A DNA stretch of 64,000 bases from Tubiluchus corallicola (Eukaryota; Animalia; Priapulida): positions 8,148-72,147 of the forward strand of contig JAQGDQ010000993.1 of the NCBI GenBank assembly GCA_030141605.1, written 5' to 3'. The stretch's first letter is position 1. Every line of letters starts with the position of its first letter. Both the position numbers and the translations under genes were made by a program. The notes beneath the pieces are model-generated. The model saw only the letters and a list, made by a program, of their open reading frames with translations. It did no database searches and was not told where the DNA came from. Of this stretch, positions 4,101 through 51,468 are shown piece by piece.

Positions 4101-4290
4101 AGTGTTGCCGTAAAGCTTTTTGTCACCGAGACGGCTTCTCCAGTCTCTACATCAGCCAAGCCAAATGCTTTGCTATAAACGATTTCATCATCACGTACCA
4201 TGACTATGCTGATTCCTGGTCCAAAATGGTGACAGCCCATCAGCTGAAAAACAATCATTTGAAACACAAACTCCAACAGAGAGAGAGAGA

Positions 4291-4339
<49 letters not shown>

Positions 4340-5645: not shown

Positions 5646-5687
<42 letters not shown>

Positions 5688-6433: not shown

Positions 6434-7866
6434 GATTGCTGTAAAAGATGTTGCATCAACAGTGCATATCAAATTTGAGAAAAACAATGCACAAAAATAT
6501 TGTTTCTTTTTTCAAACTTTTTATCTTGACTTGGAACGGTATTTGTATGATTTTCTTATTTTTGCACGGAAAAGAATCTTTTGTAAATAAAGCAGAAACT
6601 AGCTTGCTACAAAGTCACCATGGCAACAATTACACATGCAATGTATTCTGGGAAGTTATGACGTTTAATTTGAATATCAAAGTAATAATAATTCTGTATG
6701 TAGTCCTGGAGTCCTAAGCTCAAAACGAGGCCGGGATTTGCTCAGTCTGGTAACTAATGGCGACTCTTAGCTAAAATTAGCAGGGGTTGCCGCAAAATTA
6801 AAAAACTTTTAACCATTGTTTTAATATTGTGTAAAACGAAACAAACGTATGCAATTATAATGCCGTAATTGTAATTTTAAACAAATAAGCTAATTTAAAC
6901 ATAACCTTGATAAACTACTAAACAAAAAATATTGTTTTTTTACGAATAGCTTAAATTGTCGCAGTTCAAGAATATTACGATACACGCCTTTTAAACACGT
7001 GACAACTGACAAACGAGTACTGCAGTGAGCGACAGTACTCTTTCTACCTAAAGTACAGCGTCTGTCCTCAGATATGTGCGATGGCCGCATGCGCACAGCA
7101 GCCCAAACATCACGTTGCTTGGACTGTGAAGCAAATTGTACTTCCCTCACATGCTCCGGTTCCGCACAAGTGTAAAGAAAGAACTAAAGAAAGCAGATTA
7201 TTATATTGAATATCATCGATAATAATGAATGAAAACAGGGGGCGCTGCAGTAGCACAGTACCTACACGCGAGCTGCCACTGCTGGCAACCAGTTTTTTTA
7301 CTTATATTAACCACACTTAGATCACCAAATGCTAACCTAACCGACAGTTAGACTGACCTAACAAACGAACTGATGATGAATTCGAACAGTTTGTACATCA
7401 GGATGTACGTCAACAGCTTTTTGCTTTAAATTCATTTGATTTGATTTACTTAATTTTTCTTTTCGATATTTGATTTGGTATGGTCTATTTGTACTCTTTT
7501 TAAAATCAACGAGAAAACAGTGCTGCTGAAACAGTTACTGCTGCTTGCATATGCTTAATAGCCTACATTCATAAACCTAATACAATCAGTCATTGCAATC
7601 ATAACAGTTAGGTCTATATTCAGCACACAAACTTCAGGTAGCTAATTTAAAACATCATTAAATGATAACTAATGTTGGTGTGTGAAAAATTTAAAAATAC
7701 AATTTGCAATAGATCTCTTTATAATTTACTCAGCTTCAGGCCTAAAATATAAATTGCACTGGTACAGAGATTAGAATAAAAAGATACAAATTATTTCAAA
7801 AGGTGATAACAAATACGAATACTGAAATAGTTAAATTGATACAAGAGATGATATATTAATAAATAG

Positions 7867-8156
7867 TTACAATTCCCGACACAATTTAAATATCTTACAC
7901 CTAACCCTAACTCTAACCCTAACCCTAACTCTGACCCTAAACCATGACTCTAACTCTAACCCTAACCCTAAGCCACCCTAACCCAAACCCTAAGGCACCC
8001 TAACCTTAACATTAAGCTACTCTAACCCTAACCCTCCCTAACCATAACTACAACCTTAACCCTAAGCCACCCTAACCCTAATCCGTGAACTCCATGACTA
8101 ACTTCATGAACCCTAATAACTTCATGAACTTATCTCTTGTGTGTAGGGAATTGTAA
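7867..8156. mobile_element. MITE-like element with about 16-bp TIRs enclosing degenerate (CCCTAA)n; mirror 47605..47894
   Basis: ttacaattcccgacac ... gtgtagggaattgtaa; telomere-like hexamers at 7899-8082. Confidence 0.6.
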
Positions 8157-9467
8157 ACTTTACACTAAAGCATCTCTTGTGCCCATCTAACTATTTCAGT
8201 GTGTTTATTTATTTATTATTAGGCACAAAAATATTTATAGGTATTAGTGCGTTAATAAAAAAAAAACAGCGAATAGGTTTGTACAAAAGTTCAGAGCAAA
8301 GAGCTACAGAAAAAAGCCACTTTGAGTTAAAAATTTGCAAATCTCAGTTAAATCTGTGAGGCCACAGTTAAATCAGAGACGTTTCAAAAGAGGTAGATAG
8401 GCCTACATATCTATATATATATCTAAATATATATCTATAAATATCTATATCTATATATCTAAATTGATAGGTTCGTCGATAGACCTACATTGTTTAATTC
8501 AGTAGGCCTATTTCAACTGACTTAATAAAATATTAGTGTCATGGCATGCCGGATTTTCATGCAGACGGTCGAGTTCAAATCCCCGCAATAATTTTTTTGT
8601 AGGGAGGACTGAAAAAATCCCAATCTCCGTTGACAATGGAGAAGAAAGGGAATTATTATTATTATTATTATAATTCTATATTTTTAAAAACTATGTACAG
8701 AATACATTCCCTCTATTTGTAGCAATATGTTTCAAATTTCTAAAAGCGTTTACAACATATTAAACATATTCACTTATATATAATTTAGAATCCAACGCAT
8801 GAGACACATTGAACGACAACAAATATACAATAGACATAGTTTAAAATTATAATCCAACACTACATACATACATAATAAACAATAACTAACATATTTTAAT
8901 ACTTAGTAACAAAAATTTACACACATTATACACAATGACAAACAGCGAGTACAATTATAATAAACATAATTACCAATTCTAATGTTAATTCGCATAATCA
9001 TAAATAAAAACAAAACAGCATATAGAAAACACGACGAGAGTTGTAAAATTTCATCACGAACAGACTATTTATATACAGGCGAAAGACGATAAAAATTTAT
9101 CCGAGATAAGATTTGCAAAAGCTTTTATAGCATTATTAACCTGGCTAGAGAAAACATAGTACGAATCTAACGTGCTAATAAAATCATTTCTTTTGGCTTG
9201 GCTTTCTAATATATATTCAAATAATAAATGATGTACAGACTGAGGGCTTAATAACAGTTACATGTGCTCTATGAACTGTGGTAATTGTTCGCGAAGCTCA
9301 TTCTGATGACGCGTTACTATAGTTACTGCATTGTACTAGAAATCATATTGTGATTGCTAAACGTTCCAATATTTGAGCAGCTCAAACTTGCTTCTTCAAC
9401 ATGTCATATCGTTTTGAAAGTCATTTAAGTGCAACGACATCAACTCATTGACTTTTTTTACAACAAG

Positions 9468-12380
9468 ATGGAGGCATGTAAAGTTTCTTTAGGCTTATCT
9501 GCCATATTTGTTATTGTTGCGACGTACATCCAGCCAGGGTTTTCAGACTTCTGTGAGAAGATTGAATGTCCTCAATGCTTTCACGTCACGAATTATTACA
9601 ATGAAGACAATTGTACTATATTCTGCAGGCCGAACCGTGAATATCTGTGCTCCATTGGAATACCATTGCTTGAAGACCATTGCTTGACGTCTGGGGACCT
9701 TCAAAATATAGCTGATAAACTTCCTCAACCTATAAGCCACGTTTACATTGAACGTTTAGACTGGGATGGTGGTCTGACTGGAGAAGGAGATGTTTTCTAC
9801 ATGAAATTTCCAGGCAAGTCAGTGAAATCATTAAATATAATACAAAGCAAATTCACTAAGTTGTATCAGCATTGTCTTGAGGGTACTATTGAAGAACTGA
9901 ACTTCTCGTTTAACCATAATCTTGTACAGATACACCCAAAGGCTTTTGCTAAGGTAGATGGTCTGAGAACGCTGAAGATTCGATTTACCCACCCAAAACT
10001 GAAGATTCCTGCATTGGATTTGACTCAGAGTTTAAATTTCGAGCTTTTGTACGCAGAAGGGGTGAAGAGGATAAACAAACCTCAGCTACACGAGAGTGTA
10101 CCCTCCTCTAATGTTACTGTAATAGTAAAAGGTAAGTCTCATCTTTCGCAAATCAAAATGATAAAGTGTCTATGGTGAATCACTACATTTTGTAAAATTG
10201 TAAGAGAAGGAAACCTGTCGTCAAGTTGGTAGACAGTTTTTAGAGGTTTGGAGTAAGGAATACTAGACCAGAGTTAGGTATAGCCAAAATTTGTGAGAGA
10301 TGTCGTAAAAACATATTCCTATTCTGAGCTCCAAACAGTTATGTGGTTGCGTGAGCAATCCCCTTAGCATCCGCCACGTTCTAGTCCATTGAGATCGCCA
10401 TGAAAGTTTATAGGAACATATTTTAGAATAAGCTCCACATTCGATTGGCGTAATCGTATTTTCGATCTACCATTTTGAGATTGAAATGGCAGCAGTAACA
10501 TCATTTTTGAAAAGAGCTCAAGGCTCTGCCAAATCGCAGTGGATCATCACAAAACTTTGCTGAGTTCGGGATTTTGATTTTCGGTCCAATGCTTCGAATT
10601 CAAGATGGCGACGTAACACCATTTTTGAAAAAAATCTAAGGCTCCGCCAACTCGTAGTCGGTTGTCATGAAGCTTTACTGAGATATACTAGAACAAATTC
10701 TGCATCGATTTTCCATTTGCCATCTTAAATTCAAGATGACGACATTGATGTCTTTTCAAGTATGTTAGCAGTCGTACGTGATCATTAGCGAACCAGCTTA
10801 ATTCAGAAGGTGAACCATCGCATGAAATACATGGTAAAGTTGCTCCAGCTAATAAACACAGTGAGTAACAGTCAGCAGAATGCGACGAAGCAAAACTTAA
10901 AAAATTTAACCAAATTCTGCTATTTTTTATAAAACACCGGTCTGTAAAGCTTTCAAAACTCTTCGCGTTGTTCATGACTCATTTAAATTACTCAGTACTC
11001 ATTTGCTAACAAGGATTTCATTTTCAGGTTACCATCTGAAATGTGACAAGAAGCTTAGCTGGGCTATAGAGGAACACTTAAAATGGGAACCTAAATGGAA
11101 CATAAGCATGACATGCGGTGAACCTAAACGTTTTTTTGGATTCGATTTGGCAGATTTAGCTTGCCCAATTCTTGGTAAATGCATTCAGTAAATGCATTTT
11201 ATTTTTAGAGAACCTTTTACTTTTTGTTGTATTACCAAAAAAACACTTTTATTATTCGTTGTTTTATTTTTTAGAAAACATATTGTTTTAGAAACGTTTA
11301 CCGTACAAAACAATTTTATCGTTTACTGTTTTATTTTACAAATTCTTTTTTCCTTTGTAATTAAATACAGTAATGTTAATTCAGTGACATGCCTATACCT
11401 GTTGTATACGCCAGCAATGTAATACTTTAATGTTCAAGCAATTTAATGTTTTCGTAAGTATTATGCGTTTTTTAAATATTTATTTTTTTAACTTGTTCAC
11501 TTGTGGTTTAATGTTCGAAATAAATTAGATATAATAAAGATATCTGGTGCTTTTAAGCGAATTGCAAATCAACATTAAATCAATGAACACCTGTACTGGC
11601 AGTTTTTCAAATTGCTTTAAAGCCCAAGAAAACCCTCAACTTATATCAAGCTTCATATTTTATATCACTTGCATACTACCATTGTACATATTAGACTTGC
11701 GTCTGCTGTCATGCTGTATAAAACTTGTAAATTGAAACTCCCGCGATGACTGTTTTACGCAGCCATTTTGACGATAAGTTATTTGAAACCAATTTAGATA
11801 ACATCTTGTAAAGTTTAAAAAAATAATCAGAGCATTCGTAGGGCACAAGTCACTAACGGAATAAAATTTAAAATTACTGTATCTTGTCATTAAGATTAAA
11901 AACTAAGTTTTTGGTTAGTGAGTGGTGCACCCCGGAGGGTGAGTCAGCGACATGGTACCAATTGCTGAAAATATTTTACATGATTAATAATTTTTTTCTA
12001 GTTACATAAGTCTTTCCCGCAGATAAGCGAAATGCTAAGTAATACGGATTTGCATGGAAAGTTTTTTGGGACATAATTTAACATTTCCTTTTCTTCCCCT
12101 GATTTACCTGTTTTAGTGACGTCATGTAATGGTGCCGTCGGAACAATATTGCGCGAAATTTAAAATGCAATCAAACGAAAATTACTTTCAACACGAATAC
12201 CATAGGTGCATAAAATTGCTATGAAGTAGTGTAATTTTTAAGGCAATTTTTCTGAAACTTATTTCAGGTATCCCTTTTCTTCTCCTTCAAGGGTAAAAAG
12301 ATAATGTTTTAGTTAATCCTGTTTTAGGAGATTCAGATAAAGACGATACAAGAATTACATATGTACTGTATATTGCATAA
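9468..12380 (+). CDS. Secreted Cys-rich/leucine-rich-repeat protein with LRRCT cap (about 287 aa)
   Basis: Signal peptide MEACKVSLGLSAIFVIVATYIQPGFS; LRR-like IEELNFSFNHNLVQIHPKAF..LRTLKI. Exon 9468-10131, then exon 11028-11174 encoding LKCDKKLSW..C.EP..G.DLADLAC (LRRCT-like). Tentative last exon 12328-12380 is followed by AATAAA. Confidence 0.7.
11617..12290. mobile_element. Non-autonomous Kolobok-like element in LRR gene intron (mirror 43445..44118)
   Basis: ttaa|agcccaagaaaaccc ... cccttttcttctcct|tcaa; imperfect TIR AGnnnAAGAAAA; homologous to the spacer copy. Confidence 0.65.
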
Positions 12381-12683
12381 TCCCATCAAGCATCAAACAA
12401 TTTTCTTCTTATATAAATAAAAAGGTATCTGCATCTTGATTACATACACTATTAATTAAATTTAAAACTAAACTTGAAAAACAAGAACTGTGAAAAAGTT
12501 GTAACAGAACCAGGATTTGAACAAGGGACCTTCTGTTTACAAGACACGCTTTACAAGATGTGCGCTAGACTACGTACTCTCCAGCGGTTATAACAGTAGA
12601 AATAATTTCGTTCTTCACAACTGACCAACAAGGTAGACATTTCCAATGTTAGATTGTTTACGATAGAGTGATTCTTACTAAGA

Positions 12684-12835
12684 TTCAAACACTGAACTCT
12701 GTCCACATGGTCCTTTAAAACACTAACATTCAAAAGAATCACATTCAATCACTGAACTCTGTCTACATGGTCGTTCAAAACACTTACATTCAAAAGAATC
12801 ACATTCAAACACTGAACTCTGTCCACACGGTCCTT
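12684..12835. repeat. About 60-bp tandem repeat, about 2.5 copies; mirror about 42900..43051
   Basis: ttcaaacactgaactctgtccacatggtc recurs at about 12684, 12744 and 12804. Confidence 0.8.
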
Positions 12836-13120
12836 CCAAATTCTAACAAAACACAAAACACAAGACAACGAGCTTCGTCTATATCATTTGCATCTGAAAA
12901 GGAAAACGAAATCAGAGGAAAAAGAATTTTTTGGGTAAAAAGTGGTTGCAGCAAACAAATGAAAGAAAACGTTGTTATCAGAATATATTAGAGAACTGAA
13001 AGCAGAAGTAGGACATTTTATTCAGATAACACCAAGTATGTTCGACCACTTGCTGGAAAATTTTCACTTCAATGTACAAGAATGACAATAGAAAGGGCAG
13101 ACTCTCTTTCTCCCTCCCCC

Positions 13121-13787
<667 letters not shown>

Positions 13788-14760
13788 GAGCACACAAACA
13801 GGAGGAAGACAGACAGAGAGAATCTCATGCAAATAATCAGAAAAGTTCTTTTGTAAAAGTTGTTTCTTGTACTATCTTTGTACTCAGTTAGGCGTTTATC
13901 ATATAACATTGTATTCTCTTCCACTTACAATATTATTGTTTCAGTTTTTATCAGCCATTGTGCAATGTGCAGTTTATAAGCACGTATAGACCAGTAGAGA
14001 TTTCTTTTTTCAGCTAACTGCCTTGCCGATTACGTATTAACAAAGCCCACTTCCGATTGCAATCTAGTGGGAAAAACGCGCGGTTTTTGTAAAAAAAATC
14101 GCTCAGAGAGCAATGAGTGCTGGAAACGGCGCGGGCGATTATTTGTCCCGCATTGTGTATGAACAACGGCACCTGTAAAATCGTAGAGCAATTAAGAGGG
14201 GAAAACCCCGCGGTTTCCTGCCTTTTGTATAAACGGACGACAAGGCTATAATATTTCTTTCGTGCTACATGTATTTGCGCGCACATATATTCTCTTTTCT
14301 AATCTCTTCCGTAATCCTAGCTCAAGCAAATTTCGGAATTGGACAGGATTTCAATCCAGAAAATTGTTTTCTTGAAATTTATCAATGTATAAGGTTTCTG
14401 TTTTAATTGCGACATGTAACAAAACGCCGAAAGAAGACCTACACGACTTACGTTTTCCACTATATAAGAACTAATAGACTCAGTTAGCGTAACAGTCTGT
14501 TGTTGAGCAAAGCAGGCTTAATTCTGGGTTTTCAGGAGATAATATTCTGAACGATTTCTCAAAAGCAATGTAACTAACATAACCACTTGGAAAATCGTGC
14601 CTTGTTTACTAAACATATGCTTTTCAAAACTTGCATCTTTATTGTGACATCTTTTCTTATGTTGTTTACAAACAGGAATAGGTGTTTTCATTTGGTTACA
14701 TTGTTGGGGAAAAACATATTTTTATTGTTTTTACAGTGGCAGCCATTATTTTTTCATAAA

Positions 14761-15741
14761 ATGAACGTTACTAATGTAACTACGTCTGACACATCGTCTG
14801 CTTTGTTTGACTATACGTTTTTTCTTTTGATTTCCACGATTGCAATATCCTTTGTTATAGTGTTCAGTAACACACTTGTTCTGATTACGTTGGCGATGGA
14901 AAAACGTTTCCATAGTGCAGCCTACGTGTTTGTTGGAAACTTGGCAGTTGCAGACTTACTGACAGGAATATCTATGCTGTACATGGCGCTAACAGTTTTT
15001 ATACCGGAACTGATGATATCCAAACATGCGTGTCTTACTACATTTACAACTACAGCATGCTGGTCTTCTCTTTCAATGTACAGCATTTTGCTCATATCCG
15101 CAAGTCAGTACACAAAAATTGTTTATCCACTTAACAGTGATAATATCATGACTAATATGCGTATAATTTTACTGGTATTTGCGTCGTGGTTAGCCTCTCT
15201 GACGTTAGTATCATTACCGTATTTTGGATGGTCAAACGAGTATCATGGCATAGCGTCTTGCTTTCTACTGACAGTACTGTCACCAAGTCACCTACTGCTT
15301 TGGTTGACTGCTACATTTTTCCTACCGACTCCAGTGATTGCGTACTTCTACATTCGTATAATGAACATAGCTCGCTATCACTCTAAACAAATTAGGTTGC
15401 AAACTGGAACAAACTCTGCCGAACCTGCCCTTCAACAGGAGCGCTTTAAAAGAGAAATGAAACCATTTGTCACTACTCTAATCGTGCTAGTCGCGTTTCT
15501 CTCGTGCTGGCTTCCAGCCGTTGTGGTTGTGCTTACAGATGTTTTAAACTCTTTGTTAAATCCAACTGCAGCAACTCATCCAGACGTGATGATAGTGTGC
15601 ACTTTCGTCTACTGTAACTCGTTCTTTAATCCGGTCATATACGGTATGAGAGATAGAAATTTTCGTAGGGCATATCGCAAAGTCATCCGCTGCAGAAATA
15701 CTGGCGCCACAGTCGATACTATGTTAAGTAACTTTTCCTAG
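14761..15741 (+). CDS. Rhodopsin-like class A GPCR (326 aa from MNVTNVT), single coding exon
   Basis: Seven hydrophobic segments, N-terminal N-glycosylation sites, SN (TM1), NLAVADL (TM2), W (TM4), CWLP (TM6), NSFFNPVIY (TM7), FRRAY helix 8. Splice acceptor at 14736 lies upstream of ATG 14761. Confidence 0.92.
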   Translation: MNVTNVTTSDTSSALFDYTFFLLISTIAISFVIVFSNTLVLITLAMEKRFHSAAYVFVGNLAVADLLTGISMLYMALTVFIPELMISKHACLTTFTTTACWSSLSMYSILLISASQYTKIVYPLNSDNIMTNMRIILLVFASWLASLTLVSLPYFGWSNEYHGIASCFLLTVLSPSHLLLWLTATFFLPTPVIAYFYIRIMNIARYHSKQIRLQTGTNSAEPALQQERFKREMKPFVTTLIVLVAFLSCWLPAVVVVLTDVLNSLLNPTAATHPDVMIVCTFVYCNSFFNPVIYGMRDRNFRRAYRKVIRCRNTGATVDTMLSNFS

Positions 15742-18594
15742 AGTCAAAAAAATTTATGTGGTGTGACATAACCTCTTTAGAAAGACGCAGAAAACGTATT
15801 TTGATAAAATAACCACATCAGGACAGCGTGAAAATACTGAAGCACACATGTTACAGTTTCAAATCGTTTAAAACAGTTTTAGAAGTACAACCTCGTACTT
15901 CCGCTATAATTAGTACCTGATGCGCAGAATTATCAGTGACTTCCTCTCCTGTTCAAACTTCACAATAATCACTTTATTTACCACTGAATAACATTTTGAC
16001 CATACTAATCATGATAATTTTACAGAGAAAAACATACGCTTGCCCAAAAATTAAAGCGCTGAACTTTATTTTCAATAAATGTAACTATTAAATGTCAATT
16101 TCGTTTCTTGGAAGAAGGAAGAAGCAAGACATAGTAGGTCGTTTTTGAACAGACTTCGACAAGAGCGAACGGAAACGGTTTCTGACCGGACTTCCGCTGG
16201 AGAATTGAATGTGTGTGTGTGTTGTAGTGTGTAATAGCTACCCGTCGACGTGTAATTACTGTTTGTTGACTAAAGCAATGTAAACAAATCACGAGTAGTA
16301 TCTTACGACAATATTTTACTATTATTGTATGTAGGTTGCTCAATTGTTGTTTCTGTTGCTGTACTGTTGTTGCCACTATTGCTATTGTTGTTGTGCTGCT
16401 ATTGTTTGCAGTTTGATTTGACAATTCTTCGTAGGCCTCATTAATTTCTTTGTTATTTAGCATTCAAGCAGAGGTCTATTTATCTGACTTAACTTCCCAA
16501 TACAAAACTCAAAACCAATCTTACTGTAGTGGGTGCATAAGCCCTTTTTTGGTTTTAATTTAGTTTTCAATTACTGCCACGGTGCTGCCACCTGCTTGTT
16601 TATTTAGTAGGCTTTTTACTTTTTACAGTAGTTACTCTTTTAAAATTGAAGCACCCAATATCCTTCAATACATTAGCATTTTGGTCTTTCGTGAGCTATA
16701 GCTGTAGTAGTTGTATGACATTTTACCTGTCTTTTGGTTCTCTCCGCCATTGCTCTATTTTTCTTACGCATTATGACTGTGAATTTCTTACGAATTTATT
16801 TTTGTGACATTTTTGTTCTTAAGGGTACTTGGAGTTCTCATTCCTGTCTTTGTAATTGTTAAAGGCTCTAACAACGTCAGTTATTGTTGAAGTTATAATT
16901 AACTACGTAAGTTATTATTAATTAATTTCAATATAATGTAGTCTTTATAAATTTTATATCAGTTCTTAGCTATAGCAACACATTTAATTATGCAACTAAT
17001 TTCTTCTACTCAATGCAAATTAAACTAAATGTTAATAATTGTATTTCAGAATAAAGAAACTTTTGGTCAACATGTTAAACTGGTGTTTTGTATCCATTTC
17101 AGTTACTACTTTACTACAGTTATTTTCAACATGTTTTCATACCAGAAATTGTGCAAGTTGATTGCAATGTACACAACACAACATACGCAACATGCAAAAT
17201 AACAAATAAACAAAACACTTATTCAACTAAGACGCATACATACTATACACAATACAAAATAACAAAACAGAAATGCAAAAATATAATAAAGCAAGAACAG
17301 CTTAACAGACAGAAACATTTATATTCTATTAGAAAGATAAAAATTCCATAAAACGAAAATAAATCTGGAAGAAAGAAGTTTCCATATTCTGCCAGAAATG
17401 TATGAAAATCTGAGCGTCGTATGTACAACTTTCAAACTAAACAGGCTTGAGCACCAACATATTCATCTAAAACAAAAAACAGCACATTTCACATCTAATT
17501 TTTGTATTTTCACTTGCGAATTTTGAAACTAGAATGTCTTAAAGCTTGAAAATAGAATTAATCTCAGATCGTTAACCAACTTCTAAATTTTCGTCTGCTT
17601 TTTATTCGCATAATTTTAGGCGCTAAACCTATTTAAACAGTTCTAATCTAAGTATTAATTAATTTTGAATTGCTACTTTTGAAATGCTTCGTCAAAATTA
17701 ATTCATCAAATCTATTAGTTTCTCTCACAGAAATCTTATCGTCGGCTGTTTTTCTCCCTAACATACTGATACTATTTCTGCAAAATAAGATTCTTATAGA
17801 ATAAGTTTATTCTATTTTATGCTTGGTATATACGAAGACTTAAAGTTCGTGTTTTTCTTGTTTGAACATGTCACAAGAATAACTCAGAGGCTTAAACCCA
17901 AATTAATCTGTTGCTGTGCACCCTGCTTGGAGGGAGGATCCACAACTGTTGAAACACACTATAATATAGACAGAAGGGTTCAGTTATGTGTGGTGGCAAG
18001 ATCTTCCATGAAGTGGTAGCTTACAATGTCATAATGTTTGTGCAATATTATTTATTCAAAATGCTTAAAACTTACTAATGTGTGTTGTGCCAACATGGCT
18101 GCTAACTGTAACTCACATCTTCACGAAATTGTGACAAAAACCTTTAAAAAATTATGAACATTTTTAAGTACAGGACTACGCAGGTCTTGTTGTTTTGGGG
18201 TTTAATAGGTACTGTATGTTGTTGCATATTGATTCATTTTAAAGGCATTAACTTACCTTTTACTGTTGTGTTAACCATAGACAATTTGTTTCGGTTGAAA
18301 TAAAATAGATTTGAATTTCGTTTATACTTGGTATGTATTGCAATTGCCATATTTTCACTAGGTCATCGTTACGATTCATTGATTTAAAGTTCTGATAGAA
18401 AACGTTTGAAATAATTTGACAAACGTTGCCCAAGTGTCTATTACAACTACTCAGTGTATGGTTTCACATGTTAACAATTGAAATTGAGGCAGCTCGACAA
18501 AGTATCAATGAATGTAATTAAATAAGCCATTTCTAATGATTAGTAATCAATACAATAATCGATATTTATTGGTATTGTTAATGCGATTTTTCAG

Positions 18595-21500
18595 TTTGGT
18601 ATTATACTGGATTAGAGGAAGTCACTAAAGACAATTTTCTTGAAAATTTGGAATTGACCAGTAAGTACGAGCTGCTTTTTATATGTCGACAAATTTGGTA
18701 GAAAACAGCTGAACAGTTGGAAGCTAAATCAATATCAAATTTAGTTTTATCATAGCAATGTACTGAAGTATGTATTTTGTATCGAAGTAAATAAATTTAA
18801 TAAATTCAAACTAAAAGAAAAATACGCTGAACAACATAGTTGTTTGCTAGTCATTATAAATAAATTCCTAATTGTAAATACTCATACTAACTATAGAAAA
18901 CTGGCTATTTGTTTTACAGATTTTATTTTTCACTCACTGTAAAAAGGTGAAACTGCAATAGAAACACGAAACAAGAACATGGAACAAAAATAAATCCATA
19001 ACAGACGTGCAAAAAATAAATAAAGGAACAAGCAATAGCAAACTAACCGGTATACTGTTACTAATTTACTAATAAATAAACTTCCTGACATATCACAAAT
19101 CAACATGCATGCCTACACAAAAACACACATATGAATATGCAGTTGCAAAAATCAATAATTAGGCATCACTGTAACACTATCAGAAACTATTAAGCTGACA
19201 AATAAATTACTGAAAAGCTTTGCATAAAAATGAAGAAACATATGAACTTACAAACGTTTGAGGATCTGTAGAAAAAAACTTTAAGCCAGTTTTCAGAAAT
19301 CAACAGAGACATACTGATTTTATTTTACAACAATGGCATACTGACCACACAGCTACTGACCTCTATACCACTAAAACAGGATTTTTTCCTATTCTAAGGC
19401 TATCTAACCTCTCATACAAGAGCGGCCAAGCATGTTAAACAAACGCTACAGGTAATGCAAAAATGAATAATGACTCTCTAGAATCAACAAACCTGGCTTC
19501 ACTGTACTCATGCTAGCCTGAGAGATAACACTAACTATCAGCAATATGTTGCTAATTTTTCTTTTCATTATTAATTCTAGTGGCCTAACATAAGCTTGCT
19601 TCTTAGATCTGTAGCGCAGAATTTACGAATTGTATCTTAATTTTATTGTATTAGCGAAGATTTGATTTGTATAAGTGTACTTGTGATGCATAAGTATTTC
19701 TTTATTATGCGGAATAAATTGATTGAATTGAATAGTACTTATCTTGTGTCCGTCCCAGTTCTTTCCGTTATTTCGTTATCATCATCATCAACGTCGTCGT
19801 CGTCGTCGTCGTTGTCAAGTAAACGCTTTAACTGCTACAACGTTCATGTCAGTTTATTATTGTATCATTTTTCCAGCTATAAAGAATTACTCTTGCAGCC
19901 ATGGGCAGTTCCTTCTACCTGGAATGACTCGTTGTTTACCCTGGTTAACTTGCAGTGACATTAATAAACTGAACATTTCTCGTAGTGCGTTTACTCGTGG
20001 CTCTACAAAACAGGTGAGACGTGTGATAGAAGTCCAATTATTAATGATGAAATAAACCCCGCCATTGTTAACTTTATGGAATAAACTCGGTTGAATAGGA
20101 GGAGACTCAAATTCAGGACTGCTCCTGACTCTTCCACATTTTTTTCGTCAAGTTTGGCTTTGCCTGGCTTAGGAAATTAAAAGCGGCCTACTATTTTGCA
20201 TTATCGAAGTTTTTTGCTTACCGTAGGGACACCACAGCATCGTGTGCCGAAAATGGCTGTAGTCATTTTAAAGTCATTTTACACAAAAATACGTTTAGCC
20301 TTCGTCAGCGAGTTTTAAATTCAAGCAATGAAGCCATTTAAATTCAATCAATGAAGCCATTTAAATTCAATCAATGAAGCCATACTCAGTTTTATTCTTA
20401 ATACTGATGTCATTTTAACTTCGAATGTTTTTGCCCATTGGGAATATATACTTAATAACCCTTTTTTACATATTTAGCTTAGCAATTCTCTGTTCTTTGT
20501 GAAGATGTTTATTTTATTTGTCTTGTAGTAATATTTTTTAATTGTGATTTTTTATCTAAGCTTTGTTTATTGTTCTATGGTACTTTTTATGTACTGAAAT
20601 AAACGAAAAATAAAAAAATAATATGAATATTGAATTCATCATTCTAGAGCAGATGATCCCTAATGACACCACAGATCGCCTCTCTCCACCATTGTCTATC
20701 CCTCTCCTTCGCTTTCATCCACTACAATGATCCCACCTCAACCACATCCTTTAACTGATCCAGCCGCTGGTTTTTTGGCCTTCTTTGTCTTCCTCGTTAT
20801 TGAATGTTCCTCTCCCCTTCTAGTGGATGTCTTTTTTGAGTGTGCAGTCCTCGTGAATGATGTATGCTGCTTCATATCGAGTTTGTTCTGCAAGGATAAT
20901 GAGGGGTGTTGGAAAGCTTCACTTCTCCAAGATTTATTGATTAATCTTCCCTTCTCTCTATCTGATCCTGAACACAAAGGCAGCAATATAGTCTCTTTCA
21001 TCTTTCCTGAAATCCAGTTGCCCAGGATGATTTTCCAGAGAATCCTTAACTTGACTATAATGAAAAAATAACGATCCTTCCAGATCTTCCTCTAATTCAC
21101 TTTTTCACAGTGAAGCTGACGTGCTAACCTTTCTTACTGTTTCTGTCAATAGAGACTAGGCTACCCACGAGAATAAATTTTCTACGATATCGTGCTGTTC
21201 TCTGATCACAATTACTTATCTAGTTCACTCTTCCATATTATTCTCAGTGAGGTTAAGATCTGCTTCAGCACTATTCTTCTTCAGCCTCATCAAGATCTCT
21301 TGTATTTCTTTCTTCGAGTTTTCCAGCAGGATCATATCATCAGCCTAAAGAAAACGAAGGTTGGAGATTTTCCAGCCACTGATTGTGATCATATCATTCC
21401 ACTTCTTCAGTGTCTCACTCAGTGTCCTCTCTGCATAGTGAGTTATTTCATCGTCTTTCCTTGGTTAAAACTTCATTTCAAACACCGAACAATTATTATT

Positions 21501-21656
21501 GTTCTATTGCTAAACAAACAATAAGTTACTCCACTAAGACCACTCTTGACTGCCACGCTTGTGAGTACACACAAGTATAATTTGGCCTTCTTTGTTTTCT
21601 TCATTGTTACCAGTTTCATTCATTATTATATTATTATCTCCATTATTATTATTATT

Positions 21657-21729
<73 letters not shown>

Positions 21730-22761
21730 ATCATCAATCATCATCATCATCATCATCAATCATCAATATTATTATGATTATCATTCATTTATCAGCTATC
21801 AATTGAGAAATAAAAAGCTTCTGAACTGCTGCTGCTGCTGCACCTATTAACTTTCAAATTTAAGCAGCACGATCAAACTATCAAGCAAGAAAAGAAGCAA
21901 ACAGTTTGTATCGTATTTAACTTAAAACTGAAAAAATTCCTACTGATACTGTCTGAAGAAGCTATTGTTGTGAATGATCATAATTGGGTTTTTTTTGACG
22001 AAATAATTCTTGCTTTTCAGCTTAAGCTTGCTTGGTGGAATAACCACACAGTATTGCTGGTGAAAATGCGTTTAGCGAGGTACGAGTACATTTTCAAGAC
22101 CATACTACAAAACTACATAAGATTTCAACCAAACCCAAGATTTGTACAGCTTGTTGGCTACTGCCAAAGCAAGCACGTATTTATTATTGAATATCACGAG
22201 CATGGAGATGCTCGTTATGCGTGGAAACATTTATCCGAGTTTCCCGCCAAAATGGTGGTAACAAAGGCAGTTCAAATGTGCATAGATTATGTAGACATTC
22301 TGGCCTATCTACATAAGCAGAATTATTTTCTCTGCGATTCGGGTGACTTGGAGAAACTTTTGTCACAGTACCTCGTCACTGACAACTTTCGTCTTGTGTT
22401 AGGCGACCTAGACGATGTACAGCCTACGGATGTAGAATGTGTGTGGAGAAACGGGAAACCTTTTCAGAGAGACTGGTCGTTTGAAGCGCCCGAGTTTAAA
22501 CATTGGAAGGACACAGACTGTAACACTACCGAGTGTGCACACAAACAGGGATTGTATAAGTTGAAGACAGATATCTGGAAGATTCCTGACGTTTGCCTGT
22601 CTTTCTTAGGTTCTCCTGCGGCTACAGAACACATAGAATCTATGTCATATGTTGCAAGTACTAAACTCTGGAATATTTACCAGATGTGTAAAACCATGAA
22701 TCCATTAGAGAGACCATCATTGAATTCAATCAAGATATTTTATTCAAATGTGTTGAAATAA
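18595..22761 (+). CDS. POMK: Protein O-mannose kinase (SgK196)-like; N-terminal TM exon not located
   Basis: Exons 18595-18660, 19877-20013 and 22021-22761 are in phase. Motifs match POMK from memory: C..GQF...M..C.PWL.C, EYH, DYV.I..YLH, LCDS.DL.K.LSQYL.T.NF, DLD, APE, K.DIWKIPD, CK...P.ERP. Confidence 0.85.
20636..21420 (-). mobile_element. Degenerate RTE-like LINE fragment in POMK intron; mirror about 34315..35100
   Basis: ISNLRF..ADDMILL (RT FADD motif with an insertion) and a 3' RGRPK..DQ..DR..WR segment; many stops. Confidence 0.65.
21656..21764. repeat. (ATC)n microsatellite; mirror about 33972..34078 differs in structure
   Basis: Direct reading. Confidence 0.9.
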
Positions 22762-23318
22762 AGCTATTGATTTTGCTTTCGTGAAATAAGCCTAGCTGGT
22801 CTTTTTGTCTAATGTATACAGAACTTACGATAAACACATGCGCAGTGTGAAACGGGTTATTGATACATTTACCTTCTGATAGCAATAGTTACACCTAGGT
22901 CATATATATATACATATAAGCCTATATAACATATAGAAAATTGCAAATCTGTCATAATTGAAAACAACTTTTCCCAGGGATGCTGACAAAAACATTTATA
23001 TTTTTTATACATGTTCTTTTCTCTTTATTACATTGTGGATATGACATACTTATTCACTGTGTAAGACATTAACAGAAAAGAAAAATGTGTATAAAAATTA
23101 AAGTATTAGGTAGGCCTAAGTATCACCAGTGAAGATTGTTATTAAATGATTGTACTATATTTGTATATTCTGCTCGTATGTGTGTTAGTCTTCTCACGAA
23201 TTTTAGTGACATCAATCATAAATGACGTCGGAATGTATTTATCTTCGCAAAAACTGTAGACAATGCGAGTGTTAAGCCCGGGAGAAGAGAGGAAAAATTA
23301 AGAGAAAGAAAGAGAGCG

Positions 23319-23520
<202 letters not shown>

Positions 23521-24102
23521 CGATCATATGTAGAACTAATTTTTGAAGAGGCACAATTTATATTCAAAACATTACAATAATGTTATTTTATTTTTAGTTT
23601 TATTTCTTACACGTAAGTTTCAACGTCACACATCATTATAAATCTTTATAAAATATAAAAATAAATAATAAATAAACATTAAATGAGTGAGCACATTTAT
23701 CAATCGATTTCAGTTTTGTCAGGTCCACAGTTTTACATTTTACTACATATAAATGTTCCATAGATAAACAAGGTATAAAATCCCTGTAAGTCAACAATCT
23801 ATCACATTTTCCTACGTTAGTACTAATAGTGACATCTACTTATACAGTCAGTTGGACTGCATTGTAAAACCTGCACATTACACGAGTCAATGCTCATTTT
23901 TACAGCTATTCTAGTCCTCTATTTCTTATAATCTCTTACTCTTTATATGAAAAATTTAGGAATTATATAATCCTAAAACTCAAAACTTGGTTTAGGTCTT
24001 TGAGATAATGCAACTACAATAATTGATCCATTTCTTTTATAAAAAACCCTGTATTTCCGACCACCTGTATCGCTGCGACATTCTTGATATTTTGCCACAG
24101 TT

Positions 24103-24365
24103 ATTAACACACATAATTTAACACATTAACACACATAATTTAACACATTAACACACATAATTTAACACATTAACACACGTAATTTAACACATTAACACAC
24201 ATAACTTAACACATTAACACACATGATTTAACACATTAACACACATAATTTAACACATTAACACACATAATTTAACACATTAACACACGTAATTTAACAA
24301 ATTAACACACATGATTTAACACATTAACACACATAATTTAACACATTAACACACATAATTTAATA
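24103..24365. repeat. 22-bp minisatellite (ttaacacacataatttaacaca); mirror about 31365..31626
   Basis: Direct reading; unit variants differ between the arms. Confidence 0.9.
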
Positions 24366-25051
24366 CACTCTTAACTTATTAATTTTAAATACTGTTATAT
24401 TAATATAACTTAAATACTAGCGTATATAACTTAAACGTGTTATACGCATACCCTGTAGATGTACATTTTTCGTAGATATTACATCATTACTATATTATCA
24501 GTTAGCTGCCTACTTTCAGAATGGCCCTGACGATGACTCTGATGATGATGACGCTGATGATGATGATGATGATGGTGAAGATAATGACATTTGTGACGGA
24601 CAACAATGACAGTGATTGACGATGATGACGGTAATGATGATGATGGTGATGATAATGACGATGGTGACGGACAACAATCACAATGATTGACGATGATGAC
24701 GATGATTATCAAAGTCATCAAGTTTTGTAAATAAAGCGATGGAAATTTTTATTCACAAAACTTGACGACATTGAGTAACCTTTCCTAGATCCGGGAACTT
24801 CACTTTCCTGCTTTCCTCTTCTTGTACGGCACTCAATCAATCAAGACTTTCACTTTATCAGCTACCTACCCTATCATTTACTATCAAATTCTAAACAATT
24901 CTATGATACATACGCAAAAAAACACTGCAGAACTGTCAGCTGATTTAATGGCAGGCCTAATGACGTCATAGCAAACAACTACAATGGTACGACGAGTTAC
25001 TAAACAGGTACGATTTGCTTTGTCTCTATTTGCAAAACTTGATGACTTCGA

Positions 25052-26289
25052 TTAACCCCTCCTTCCACTTCTACGTCCTCTCCTCCAACCGCCTCCAACC
25101 GCTGCTTCTGCAACCACCCTCAGAGGACCCACTGCAGACTCGACACCGTAGCCGACATCTTTGTTGATCTCGCAAAGAATTCCACCAAAGTTGAGCGGAC
25201 AGACGCAAACTTGAACTAGATCATAGTCGTTGCAGAATCCGCCATTTTGACACGGCAGTTTGCAGTTGTAATCTGTAACAAAAAAAGACATCGCACGTCT
25301 AAGCATCACAAATATGGCAACTTAGAAAACTTTGCTGCTTATAATTTTGTTCAAAGTAGATGGTTGCAATGTGCTGCCACCTACACGAGGACAATACAAG
25401 TATAATACGTTATACAGTAACTGGTGTGAGTGATCTGATCAAACTAAGCAGATGGTTGCAATGTGCTGCCACCTACACGAGGACAATACAAGTATAATGC
25501 GTTATACAGTAACTGGCGTGAGTGGTGTTGTCAATTACACTGGTCAACACTAAATTTATTGTTCAAGTTTTTTAACTGAGTTAGGATAATTTTGACGTGC
25601 TTAATCCAAAAATTACATTGGTTTTGCCCAATCAGGTCAACTTTCTGAACTAAAAGCCACATATTTATTTTTTGACGTTTTTTGACGAATTATTAGCGTC
25701 TACGAGAACATTGCGTTTATTGATAAATCACTTGTTTCCGTCAGTTCATTGAGTCTTGTTTAATTCAAACAACTTTTTTGCATCAACGCACACGAGCTGA
25801 CTACTGCTACTACGGTACAGTACGGATCAATTACTCCAAATAATGATATTATACGTAATTTGTGTACTACGCATTTTGGTACTTTGCTTTTAAATATGTT
25901 GTCTTACCTTGAAATAAATCTCCAATGCCCGGGCGTCCAAAACCGGCAAAGTCGGCAAGACTGACGCCTTTTCCTGCTCCAAACGATAGTGGAGGTGAGT
26001 TATATGGATTGTAAACCTTTCCAAGTGGATCAAGTCCAAAGTTTCCTCCAATGTACGGTGGTTGTTTTGGACCGGAATCCGCCTCCACTTTCAATGGCTT
26101 CGTTGGATCGTAAAAGTGACCTCGACGATAATCAGCTCCCGTAAACTGAGTGAGATGAAAAGGGACTCCCAGCTGATACCAAAGAGGAATGGGTCTTTCT
26201 ATGATTGTTGTAGTTGCAGGTGCTGCTGGTGCTGCTGATGCTGCTGAAACCACCAGCAGGAGGAGCAATGTCGAAATTCCGCTCAACAT
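25052..26289 (-). CDS. Mirror copy of secreted EGF-domain protein
   Basis: Exons 26289-25908 and 25272-25052; identical translation. Confidence 0.83.
25359..25523. repeat. Local duplication of a 74-bp segment in the EGF gene intron; mirror about 30206..30370
   Basis: agatggttgcaatgtgctgccacctacacgaggacaatacaagtataat..gtaactgg occurs twice. Confidence 0.85.
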
Positions 26290-26889
26290 TTTTCACTTTC
26301 AAATCTGAAAATTTTTAGACATCTAAGATTTCACCATGTGTGAAATTTCAACTCAATTAGATAACTATGCGTTTGTAGCAAAATGGCTGTCGAATATTGC
26401 GAGTTCTGTAGGCTTGCAATTCAAAGATATGAAGTGCTGTTTGTGTGATTTGTTTGCACTTCGTATAATAAAGCATTTAAAACAAAATTAAAATCACTAA
26501 TATTAACCAGATATGAAATACCATCACACCAGTACGACAACATACACACTAATTCAGAATTCATATATCCATGGCCATGTTAATTAAATCATAGTTTTTC
26601 ATTTTTTGTGCATAGTTGTAAATACGTTTGATTTTTTCGTCGCTACTTTCCATTACTGCACAGTAGTTTAGATTGCACCGACGCATTTGCCTTTAGCAGT
26701 GTAAGTTTTTATTAACTAACACTGATTGATCATCTCAGTAAAGTAAAGTTTTTATCAGTGATTATCAATGTATTTTAATGGCAAATAAAGATTATTATAT
26801 GTATATATAATATAATATATAATATATAATATATAAAATATAATAGATAATATACAATATATAATATAATATATAATAGATAATATACA

Positions 26890-26939
<50 letters not shown>

Positions 26940-27138
26940 CCCGAACGACAAGTCAACGAACAAAACCTCAAAAAGGCAGTGAGACTGACAGCTGATTATG
27001 TACAAAAAGTTCAGAATTTAATTGCTTACCTTATCTCAACTTCCGGTAAGAGATGATCTCCGTATACTTCTCTGTCTTCTGTTGTATTCTTTCTTCTCTC
27101 AAAGTTGCTTGCGTTTTGATTTCTTGTCCTTTAACCGC

Positions 27139-27786
27139 TTAAGCACAATAACCCCCCCCCCCCGGCCACTTACATAAAGCTTAAAAAATTTGTCTTGAAA
27201 TTTTATACCACTTATATACTACCTTTTCGTATGCAGGGCTTGCATCGGCAGTAACGCGGTATAAAACGTGTAAATTTAAACTCTCGCGATGACCGTTACG
27301 CGCAGCCATTTTAATCGTAGGTCGTTTGAAACAAGTTTTGATAACATTAAGTAAAGTTTGAAAAAAATCACAGCATGTCATTGTCAATATCTTGTCAATA
27401 AGATTAAAAATACGCTTTTGGCTAGTGAGTGGCGCACCCTGGAGGGTGAGTCAACAACATTTTACCAATTGGCACAAACATTTTAATTATTATTTCTAGT
27501 TACATAAATCTTTCCAGCAGGTAAGTGAAATGCCAGGTAATATAGATTTGCACGGAATTTTTTTTGCGTCATAATTTAACATTGCCTTTTCTTCCCCTGA
27601 TTTACGTGCCGTAGTGACGTCATGTAATGGCGCCGTCGGAACAGTATTGCGGGAGATTTAAAAGGAAAACAAACGAAAATTCCTTTCAACGCGAGTACGA
27701 TATGTGCATAAAATTGCTGTAAAGTAGTATAATTTTTAACGCGATTTTTGAAACCTACTTCAGGTGCCCCTTTTCTTGTCCTTTAA
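27139..27786. mobile_element. Non-autonomous TTAA-flanked DNA transposon (Kolobok-like), spacer copy
   Basis: Diverged homolog of 11617..12290 (shared blocks such as agtgagtggYgcacc, ttttcttcccctgatttac, agtgacgtcatgtaatgg). Begins ttaagcacaataaccc and ends ttttcttgtcctttaa. Confidence 0.7.
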
Positions 27787-28578
27787 GCCTTTTACCAAAT
27801 TATTATTAAAGCTTTCATAAATTCATTTCCAAGAGTTATTCGTGAATTTTATAGGCTATTCCAATTAATGGTTGCATTGGAAAGGTAAGCGGATGTTTTT
27901 TGTAAATATGTATTGTAATTTTATTTATCTAAATTCTCCTTATTCAACAGTCAAATTTTGGGATTTTGTTAACGGATCCGCTTTCATTTCTCTGATACAG
28001 AGATTATAAATGGATTCAGGTATTATAATCGTAATTTAAAGTATTTGAAAAATTCTTAGTTATGCCCATAAAACGTCCAGTGTCTAAAAAATTTGTGGTA
28101 ATTCATATCGGTAAACGTGAAATATAAATACTAAATATTTAACGCTAACTGTTGGTTAAGGGGCTGGTCTAAGATTCAGTAGAGGCAGGTTGTGATAATA
28201 GCACTTAGTACGTTCGAATAACAGCTTTTACAAGTTGAGCTAAGAAATATTTTTTATCATAGATTCGGGCTCTTTATCATCGTTAGATTTATTTCTATTA
28301 AAGATATTGTAGTTTACACTGTGAGTATTAAGCAACACATTAACATCAAGCACCCTTTTGATTGTCATTCTGTTGTCATAGATCCGCCTTTTATAGCAGT
28401 GTGCCTTGACTGGTACAGCATTGTAAAAATGTCTGCGGTATTTTATAGTAACTTGTAAGAACTGCTTCCGATAATAAGAAGGAAATATTTAAAATGATTA
28501 CAACATTATTATTGTTTTTCTTTGAATATTCGCAAAAAGGCGAATAATCTGAATTTTCTTGAAGCGAAACGATTCGTG

Positions 28579-28586
28579 TATAAATA
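28579..28586 (+). promoter_or_regulatory. Candidate TATA box (TATAAATA) of the right EGF gene copy
   Basis: Lies about 30 bp upstream of TCAAAA at 28609 and a short exon ending in a consensus donor (AAGgtaagc, 28698/28699). Confidence 0.55.
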
Positions 28587-28790
28587 CCGGAGAGAAAGCT
28601 CAACGAAATCAAAACGCAAGCAACTTTGAGAGAAGAAAGAATACAACAGAAGACAGAGAAGTATACGGAGATCATCTCTTACCGGAAGTTGAGATAAGGT
28701 AAGCAATTAAATTCTGAACTTTTTGTACATAATCAGCTGTCAGTCTCACTGCCTTTTTGAGGTTTTGTTCGTTGACTTGTCGCTCGGGAT

Positions 28791-28834
<44 letters not shown>

Positions 28835-29438
28835 ATATTGTATATTATCTATTATATATTATATTATATATTGTATATTATCTATTATATTTTATATATT
28901 ATATATTATATATTATATTATATATACATATAATAATCTTTATTTGCCATTAAAATACATTGATAATCACTGATAAAAACTTTACTTTACTGAGATGATC
29001 AATCAGTGTTAGTTAATAAAAACTTACACTGCTAAAGGCAAATGCGTCGGTGCAATCTAAACTACTGTGCAGTAATGGAAAGTAGCGACGAAAAAATCAA
29101 ACGTATTTACAACTATGCACAAAAAATGAAAAACTATGATTTAATTAACATGGCCATGGATATATGAATTCTGAATTAGTGTGTATGTTGTCGTACTGGT
29201 GTGATGGTATTTCATATCTGGTTAATATTAGTGATTTTAATTTTGTTTTAAATGCTATATTATACGAAGTGCAAACAAATCACACAAACAGCACTTCATA
29301 TCTTTGAATTGCAAGCCTACAGAACTCGCAATATTCGACAGCCATTTTGCTACAAACGCATAGTTATCTAATTGAGTTGAAATTTCACACATGGTGAAAT
29401 CTTAGATGTCTAAAAATTTTCAGATTTGAAAGTGAAAA

Positions 29439-30677
29439 ATGTTGAGCGGAATTTCGACATTGCTCCTCCTGCTGGTGGTTTCAGCAGCATCAGCAGCACC
29501 AGCAGCACCTGCAACTACAACAATCATAGAAAGACCCATTCCTCTTTGGTATCAGCTGGGAGTCCCTTTTCATCTCACTCAGTTTACGGGAGCTGATTAT
29601 CGTCGAGGTCACTTTTACGATCCAACGAAGCCATTGAAAGTGGAGGCGGATTCCGGTCCAAAACAACCACCGTACATTGGAGGAAACTTTGGACTTGATC
29701 CACTTGGAAAGGTTTACAATCCATATAACTCACCTCCACTATCGTTTGGAGCAGGAAAAGGCGTCAGTCTTGCCGACTTTGCCGGTTTTGGACGCCCGGG
29801 CATTGGAGATTTATTTCAAGGTAAGACAACATATTTAAAAGCAAAGTACCAAAATGCGTAGTACACAAATTACGTATAATATCATTATTTGGAGTAATTG
29901 ATCCGTACTGTACCGTAGTAGCAGTAGTCAGCTCGTGTGCGTTGATGCAAAAAAGTTGTTTGAATTAAACAAGACTCAATGAACTGACGGAAACAAGTGA
30001 TTTATCAATAAACGCAATGTTCTCGTAGACGCTAATAATTCGTCAAAAAACGTCAAAAAATAAATATGTAGCTTTTAGTTCAGAAAGTTGACCTGATTGG
30101 GCAAAACCAATGTAATTTTTGGATTAAGCACGTCAAAATTATCCTAACTCAGTTAAAAAACTTGAACAATAAATTTAGTGTTGACCAGTGTAATTGACAA
30201 CAACCACTCACGCCAGTTACTGTATAACGTATTATACTTGTATTGTCCTCGTGTAGGTGGCAGCACACAGCAACCATCTGCTTAGTTTGATCAGATCACT
30301 CACACCAGTTACTGTATAACGTATTATACTTGTATTGTCCTCGTGTAGGTGGCAGCACATTGCAACCATCTGCTTTGAACAAAATTATAAGCAGCAAAGT
30401 TTTCTAAGTTGCCATATTTGTGATGCTTAGACGTGCGATGTCTTTTTTTGTTACAGATTACAACTGCAAACTGCCGTGTCAAAATGGCGGATTCTGCAAC
30501 GACTATGATCTAGTTCAAGTTTGCGTCTGTCCGCTCAACTTTGGTGGAATTCTTTGCGAGATCAACAAAGATGTCGGCTACGGTGTCGAGTCTGCAGTGG
30601 GTCCTCTGAGGGTGGTTGCAGAAGCAGCGGTTGGAGGCGGTTGGAGGAGAGGACGTAGAAGTGGAAGGAGGGGTTAA
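29439..30677 (+). CDS. Secreted 200-aa protein: signal peptide, Pro/Gly/aromatic-rich region, one EGF-like domain, Arg/Gly-rich basic tail
   Basis: Exon 29439-29820 (CAAG|gtaaga) plus exon 30457-30677 (ttacag|), phase 1. EGF pattern C.LPCQNGG.C........C.C...FGG..CE. Probable non-coding exon about 28608-28698 (AAG|gtaagc). Confidence 0.85.

Positions 30678-32977: not shown

Positions 32978-37140
<4,163 letters not shown>

Positions 37141-51419: not shown

Positions 51420-51468
<49 letters not shown>

What the first reader, a model, noticed from the sequence alone, without database searches (positions are those of the whole stretch)
27120..27786. Palindrome breakpoint is fused to a transposon terminus
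Seen: the left arm ends in tttcttgtcctttaa (27120-27134), an exact 15-bp copy of the right terminus plus TTAA of the Kolobok-like element lying immediately adjacent (27772-27786). Only 4 bp (ccgc) separate this copy from the element's left TTAA at 27139. The arm and the terminus overlap by 4 bp of microhomology (tttc/gaaa). Established: alternative (sister-chromatid) transposition of Ac/Ds and P elements produces inverted duplications, and MMBIR/FoSTeS leaves short templated inserts. Inference: this TTAA element's ends created the palindrome, a mechanism I do not know of being described for Kolobok-type elements.
Basis: partly seen in the sequence, partly recalled or inferred. Interest (0 to 1): 0.8.

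Follow-up and report, generated by a model that had tools for sequence, protein, structure and literature searches.

The report
Fold-back palindrome starts at transposon end
In this animal assembly a mirror-image copy of at least 27 kb begins right at the left end of an abundant, non-coding TTAA (Kolobok-type) transposon, through a junction carrying 11 bases that match the element's right end; it is likely an ordinary break-and-fold-back repair scar at a transposon end rather than a clean transposition, and it may instead mark a small inversion whose two alleles the assembler stitched together.

Summary
Observation holds, with one correction. The 15-mer occurs only at 27120 and 27772, and the arms (1-27123 / 28605-55758) carry 38 substitutions. 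The element is a real high-copy family with sharp AG...CT ends and TTAA target copies (Kolobok-type, non-coding). Public contigs from two samples continue the arm into the right-hand junction. One of them gives this copy an intact TTAA and a different left flank. So the left junction is the derived state, and it falls in the element's left target-site copy. Correction: the element starts at 27142 after TTA; the 'TTAA at 27139' borrows its first base. This is not clean alternative transposition: the target has no TTAA, 18 bases of filler intervene, and the copy is old. Spacer size, 4-bp microhomology and a local templated insert match known fold-back inverted duplications. That a transposase made the break is inferred from both termini meeting at one junction. 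Arm differences are patchy (none in 12.8 kb), like two alleles, so a haplotype switch across a 1.46-kb inversion remains a serious rival. No laid contig spans the left junction. The scan's notes showed no earlier report of this.

The parts
1..27123 (.). Left arm: inverted copy of 28605-55758; runs off the window's left edge
   Evidence: 38 substitutions, 24 transitions and 14 transversions
9291..22078 (.). Tract with no substitution between the arms, including a (CT)127 array of equal length in both
27120..27123 (+). 4-bp microhomology shared by the arm end and the element's right terminus
27124..27134 (+). 11-base insert identical to 27776-27786 (last 7 bases of the element plus TTAA); stops exactly at the end of the TTAA
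   Evidence: 15/15 to this copy's right end; 12/15 and 13/15 to the three other ends compared
27135..27141 (+). Remaining filler CCGC plus TTA (residue of the left target-site copy); source not established
27142..27782 (+). 641-bp non-coding Kolobok-type element (AG...CT termini, imperfect TIR of about 12 bp), an old copy of a very high-copy family
27783..27786 (+). Right TTAA target-site copy
27787..28604 (.). 818-bp unique part of the spacer; continuous with the right arm in other samples
   Evidence: (record 8)
28579..28586 (+). TATA-box-like motif 19-26 bp before the right breakpoint, left behind in the spacer (predicted promoter)
   Evidence: inference from motifs only
28594..28608 (+). 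Breakpoint site with weak inverted likeness to the element's right terminus (11 of 14, one gap)
   Evidence: as good or better at 139 of 72,396 sites, and at 43 of 529 sites ending in GAAA
28605..55758 (.). Right arm (ancestral position); probably continues beyond 55758
28611..29820 (+). Predicted 5' part of a gene for a small secreted-type protein: untranslated exon to a donor at 28698/28699, acceptor at 29423/29424, ATG 29439. Its mirror in the left arm lacks the TATA motif
   Evidence: no RNA evidence
11621..12286 (+). Second copy of the same family (666 bp; TTAA left, TCAA right); mirror at 43449-44114
   Evidence: 517 of 616 aligned bases identical

Best explanation
The 27-kb-plus mirror copy is likely a real fold-back inverted duplication that would have begun with a DNA break in the left TTAA of the Kolobok-type element, most likely cut by the family's transposase, and would have been finished by error-prone host repair rather than by transposase insertion. 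Shown: the arm is joined to within 5 bp of the element's left end through 18 bases of filler, 11 of which match the right end and stop exactly at its TTAA; the other allele seen has an intact TTAA and a different flank. Inferred: the two element ends were cut or held together, so the right end served as template; synthesis then switched through 4 bp of microhomology to a site 818 bp beyond the element, between a predicted TATA box and transcription start, and copied the arm backwards. Given a biological junction, I put transposase as the cause of the break at about 55%.
For: The right junction is continuous in 2 of the 2 samples laid (X1 at depth 128, X4 at depth 9), and this copy's X1 allele has another left flank, so the left junction is the derived one. 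A break within 5 bp of a family end has about 0.1% chance at local density, and the insert ends at the other terminus. A 1,481-bp spacer, 4-bp microhomology and a local templated insert fall within human fold-back duplications: spacers 766-70,466 bp, microhomology 2-8 bp, one 16-bp local insert, inserts usually from within 1 kb (PMC3907307 passages). Arm differences are transition-rich (24:14), so the arms are two different molecules, not one folded read. The window has no N, and the spacer is far shorter than a long read, which should make a haplotype switch hard (inference; the assembly method is unknown).
Against: None of the 3 contigs laid on 26945-27180 spans the left junction, and the X1 arm contig runs unbroken into the right junction. 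Logan contigs collapse variants and drop pieces of 150 bp or less, so this is not proof of absence. Outside tandem repeats the arms differ at 0.22%, 0% and 0.15% in three successive tracts (approximate P 3e-6 for so long a gap), which an intrachromatid fold-back explains only with later conversion. The copy is old: only 1,763 of 24,875 X1 pieces are 99% or more alike, and its left TIR departs from the consensus. The insert has the same orientation as its template, so it needs a slip or a second template, not the fold-back itself. CCGC has no significant source. In human fold-backs the microhomology usually lies between spacer end and arm; here it lies between insert and arm.
Confidence: 0.45

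Rival explanations
1. The junction is biological but belongs to a heterozygous inversion of about 1.46 kb (element plus unique spacer) that breaks at the element's left end and at 28604/28605. The assembler entered the segment on one haplotype and left on the other, so the arms are the two alleles and the palindrome does not exist in any chromosome.
For: This walk gives exactly the observed order (derivation). Patchy arm differences with a long identical tract and equal-length long microsatellites look like alleles with a collapsed stretch. The three runs of sample S1 disagree with each other at spacer sites (27984, 28128), so more than one allele exists there. False heterotype duplications are a common assembly error (10.1101/2020.05.22.110833 passages).
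Against: That paper describes such duplications as joined with a gap or left as separate contigs; here there is no N. Long reads should span 1.5 kb (inference). The second inversion junction was not seen: the X1 contig crosses 28604/28605 unbroken.
Confidence: 0.3
2. True alternative transposition (hybrid element insertion): the left end from one chromatid or homologue and the right end from the other were inserted together at 28604/28605 in the orientation that yields a palindrome, and the junction was then roughened by repair.
For: The geometry fits, and both termini appear at one junction. Use of a homologue would explain allele-like arms. The process is described for P and Ac/Ds (PMC2775673, PMC3239180 passages).
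Against: No TTAA at the target, although Kolobok insertion is TTAA-specific (PMC9587614). The end is not joined directly to the target. The copy is old, with a worn left TIR. The predicted products are mirror chromosomes that need a further break to survive (inference).
Confidence: 0.12
3. The junction is a library or amplification chimera in one read, extended by the assembler with reads of both haplotypes.
For: No laid contig carries it. Amplification is known to produce false palindromes (PMC6218980, search listing and abstract start only).
Against: A random chimera should not fall within 5 bp of one terminus and carry a copy of the other. Pairing between the TIRs is weak (duplex -4.0 kcal/mol).
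Confidence: 0.13

Closest known systems
Fold-back inverted duplications with disomic spacer (human; PMC3907307, passages read)
   Same: Short unique spacer, few-bp microhomology, short insert copied from DNA within 1 kb.
   Different: Here the break sits at a DNA-transposon terminus and the insert is the other terminus; copy number and the far end are unknown.
Hybrid element insertion of P and sister-chromatid transposition of Ac/Ds (PMC2775673, PMC3239180, passages read)
   Same: An inverted duplication that abuts an element end; both ends implicated.
   Different: No direct join of end to target, no TTAA target, a single old non-coding copy; the Ac/Ds cases use two linked elements.
Non-autonomous Kolobok elements: T2-MITE of Xenopus and solo LTDRs of KolobokP (PMC6004289 passages; PMC9587614 passages, two parts of the text, supplements searched)
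   Same: TTAA target copies, AG...CT ends, short TIR; copy lengths of 641 and 666 bp are near the 660-bp LTDR class.
   Different: No match to five family motifs among the KolobokP supplements (one chance hit); no internal region or transposase seen. The right end / spacer / left end join recalls the circle junction proposed for KolobokP, but the 11-base spacer is longer than the 1-5 flank bases lost there, and its CCGC core matches neither flank.
False heterotype duplication in diploid assemblies (10.1101/2020.05.22.110833, passages read)
   Same: Two near-identical copies with allele-like differences in one assembly.
   Different: Here they are inverted, gap-free and joined by a structured junction.

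Membership tests
Kolobok superfamily (non-autonomous) | TTAA target-site duplication | tested here: met
   Right TTAA at 27783-27786; left TTAA in the X1 allele; family consensus and loose ends; second copy TTAA/TCAA
Kolobok superfamily (non-autonomous) | 5'-RR...YY-3' termini with a short TIR | tested here: met
   AG...CT in both window copies; TIR of about 12 bp; definition from PMC9587614
Kolobok superfamily (non-autonomous) | Autonomous partner with a Kolobok DDE transposase | not testable with these tools
   No genome held; no ORF of 120 aa or more in the element; metagenome scans gave no family member
KolobokP solo LTDR | Length near 450 or 660 bp and occurrence as LTDR-INT-LTDR | tested here: inconclusive
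   Length fits; no motif match in the supplements; composite form not testable
Alternative transposition / hybrid element insertion | Element end joined directly to a new target of the family's type | tested here: not met
   18-base filler; no TTAA at 28604/28605
Alternative transposition / hybrid element insertion | Inverted duplication abutting an element end | tested here: met
   Break within 5 bp of the left end
Alternative transposition / hybrid element insertion | Reciprocal product and an active transposase | not testable with these tools
   No genome or reads of a known source
Fold-back inverted duplication | kb-scale spacer, 2-8 bp microhomology, local templated insert | tested here: met
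   1,481 bp, 4 bp, 11 bases from about 650 bp away; the microhomology is to the insert, not to the spacer end
Fold-back inverted duplication | Arms at higher copy number than the spacer | not testable with these tools
   Only contigs were available, with one depth figure each
False heterotype duplication | Half read depth on each copy; copies are the two haplotypes | not testable with these tools
   The pattern of differences is compatible; no reads
False heterotype duplication | Copies joined across a gap or left as separate contigs | tested here: not met
   No N in the window

The most novel reading that the evidence does not exclude
This is a natural footprint of Kolobok transposase chemistry: both ends of one old non-coding copy were cut in a paired complex, the right end was left with a TTAA overhang that repair copied to its last base, and the left end seeded a large inverted duplication. 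High-copy Kolobok MITEs would then be a source of palindromes and promoter-splitting rearrangements in invertebrate genomes.
Probability: 0.2. Interest if true: 0.55.

Novelty: new member of a known kind. Interest (0 to 1): 0.3.

Why it matters
Transposon-triggered inverted duplications are known for Ac/Ds and P, and fold-back junctions are well described. My searches of the held library (listings, plus passages of two Kolobok papers) showed none tied to Kolobok, whose cutting chemistry PMC9587614 calls unknown for KolobokP. A verified case would give a first hint of how its ends are cut and would make a very abundant MITE family a candidate source of structural variants. If the palindrome is a haplotype switch, four predicted genes here are falsely doubled in this assembly.

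Tried and rejected
Whole genome: not held, so no genome-wide consensus or survey of other palindromes. A pre-existing second copy 4 bp left of the element: rejected for the one allele seen, whose flank differs; an ectopic family copy as source of the insert cannot be excluded. Insert as a fold-back of the left TIR: it matches the right end 15/15 and the left end 12/15. Source of CCGC-TTA: a 7-base inverted match at 27886 arises in 2,925 of 20,000 simulations, so it is not significant. The 8-bp palindrome at 27137-27144 could be an opened hairpin, but one lost A explains most of it; a hint only. TIR-like target site: 43 of 529 GAAA-ending sites score as well, so weak. The X1 left flank does not occur in the window (only a two-mismatch hit and its mirror). 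Metagenome scans: 0 hits and 4 hits with no BLAST match to the element at E<=0.01. Two protein searches meant to place the animal gave no hits. Three look-ups of earlier findings gave nothing on this feature. The literature search for palindromic misassembly at heterozygous inversions gave no specific paper in its listing, so that rival is my own derivation. One search (templated insertion after transposon excision) listed nothing relevant.

Full report
Structure. The window is dominated by one inverted repeat: 1-27123 mirrors 28605-55758 around a 1,481-bp spacer. The left arm runs off the window, so the far junction is unseen. The arms differ by 38 substitutions (24 transitions, 14 transversions) and a few indels, one of 28 bp. 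There is no N. The arms hold ORFs for a rhodopsin-type receptor (strong Pfam match) and, with matches below or near Pfam's cut-offs, a kinase-like, a leucine-rich and a beta-lactamase-like protein; a small secreted-type ORF has no Pfam match. With the microsatellites, this points to an animal genome (inference).

The observation. The 15-mer is exact at 27120-27134 and 27772-27786 and nowhere else. Its first four bases are also the arm's last four. Chance expectation is 8e-6 in the spacer for the 15-mer; 56 of 20,000 simulations held the 11 non-arm bases.

The element. Laying four public contig sets (X1-X3 from sample S1, X4 from sample S2; 4 of the 5 runs listed) on 26945-28645 gave summed depth of 0.6-1.9 million across the element in X1 against 128 on single-copy flank, from 24,875 laid pieces. 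The tool warns that this is no copy number, but the family is clearly very abundant. Loose ends pile up at 27786 in all four runs, and the left consensus reads TTAA-AGCACAAGAAAACCC in three. A second window copy at 11621-12286 has the same ends and 84% identity. TTAA with AG...CT ends fits the Kolobok definition (PMC9587614; PMC6004289). No autonomous partner could be sought. The focal copy is old, and its left TIR is worn.

Which junction is new. On 26945-27180 three contigs were laid. In X1 and X4 the arm end continues into the sequence left of 28605, so the right junction is the common state. One X1 contig at single-copy depth matches this copy's distinctive left end (one mismatch, poly-C four shorter) and continues into TTAA and an unrelated flank. 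The element really starts at 27142; the window has TTA where the allele has TTAA, so the break lies in or just outside the target-site copy, 0-5 bp from the terminus. No contig carries the left junction. Logan contigs collapse variation and report only pieces over 150 bp, so absence is not shown. Whether S1 is the source individual is unknown: its runs carry the window's base at some spacer sites and another base at others.

Mechanism. With four independent family ends in 36.8 kb, a break within 5 bp of one has about 0.1% chance (post hoc). The insert is the other end, stopping exactly at its TTAA. The element's ends are therefore very probably involved. But transposase did not simply insert the end: the target has no TTAA and 18 bases of filler intervene. 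Spacer size, microhomology and a local insert match human fold-back inverted duplications (PMC3907307). I read it as a break at the left TTAA, likely by transposase acting on paired ends, repaired by template-switch synthesis that copied the right end, then primed through TTTC at 28605 and copied the arm. The run-off at TTAA hints at a cut right end, but it is one event. A route without transposase is open: weak TIR pairing (-4.0 kcal/mol) and a weak TIR-like target (11 of 14; -5.8 kcal/mol; 43 of 529 comparable sites score as well). The order of parts is also what a hybrid element inserted in the inverting orientation would give (my derivation; process defined in PMC2775673; Ac/Ds cases in PMC3239180).

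The main doubt. Outside tandem repeats the arms differ at 16 of 7,245, 0 of 12,097 and 6 of 4,108 bases, going from the window edge to the junction (approximate P 3e-6 under uniform scatter; 16 of the 38 substitutions lie in tandem repeats and were left out of this count). A young sister-chromatid copy should be most alike at the junction. The pattern suits two alleles, or an older palindrome with a long conversion tract, or assembler homogenisation: a (CT)127 array has the same length in both arms. A heterozygous inversion of element plus spacer, entered on one haplotype and left on the other, gives the identical sequence. It keeps the junction biological but removes the palindrome. Long reads should prevent such a switch, so I rank it second (0.3).

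Consequence. The right breakpoint falls between a TATA-like motif (28579) and a predicted first exon ending at a consensus donor (28698/28699) of the gene with ATG at 29439. The left-arm copy would lack that promoter motif. This rests on motifs alone.

Literature seen. Passages: PMC6004289, PMC3239180, PMC3907307, PMC2775673, 10.1101/2020.05.22.110833, 10.1101/2024.07.30.605881. PMC9587614: passages, parts 2-3 of 6, and a motif search of its four supplements. Others: search listings only. Searches for Kolobok with TTAA (7 of 7 listed), with transposase and rearrangement (23 of 25 listed) and a broad two-of-five-term search (25 of 998 listed, none holding the word Kolobok) showed no title or abstract start on Kolobok-made rearrangements. 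Subscription papers are not covered, and bioRxiv supplements were not seen.

Verdict. A real, non-random junction at the end of a Kolobok-type MITE, best filed with known fold-back inverted duplications. Transposase as the cause is plausible but unproven, and the palindrome itself is unverified. Interest 0.3.

Noticed in passing
window 28579-29861 (+) and mirror ORF 25909-26289 (-): The breakpoint separates a TATA-like motif from a predicted untranslated first exon of a gene for a small Gly/Pro/Tyr-rich protein with a signal-peptide-like start; no Pfam match.
   Followed up: partly
window 9291-22078 versus its mirror in the right arm: 12.8 kb with no substitution between the arms, including equal-length (CT)127 and (AG)45 arrays: a long conversion tract, an identical-by-descent block, or a collapsed assembly path.
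   Followed up: partly
window 51348-51716 and 57896-58795 (+): Two pieces of a probable beta-lactamase-family hydrolase gene (PF00144 match; weak DUF3471) straddle 55758, suggesting that the right arm continues past the mirror of the window edge.
   Followed up: no
window 39994-41157 (-), mirror 14578-15741: Single-ORF rhodopsin-family receptor, identical in both arms; no database relative at E<=1e-20.
   Followed up: partly
window 32978-33763 (-): 261-aa kinase-like ORF with only a weak Pfam match and no hit in the protein search.
   Followed up: partly
window 7900-8081 and 47680-47861: Degenerate interstitial TTAGGG-like array inside the arms.
   Followed up: no
window 1858-3462 / 52297-53901; 59122-59423; 60096-61131: A 29-bp x 55.5 array with one difference between the arms, a 36-bp x 8.4 array within an open frame, and a 1-kb AAGAG array.
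   Followed up: no
window about 28541-28597: Run X4 shows raised depth (193) just left of the right breakpoint, suggesting a short repeat there in that sample.
   Followed up: no
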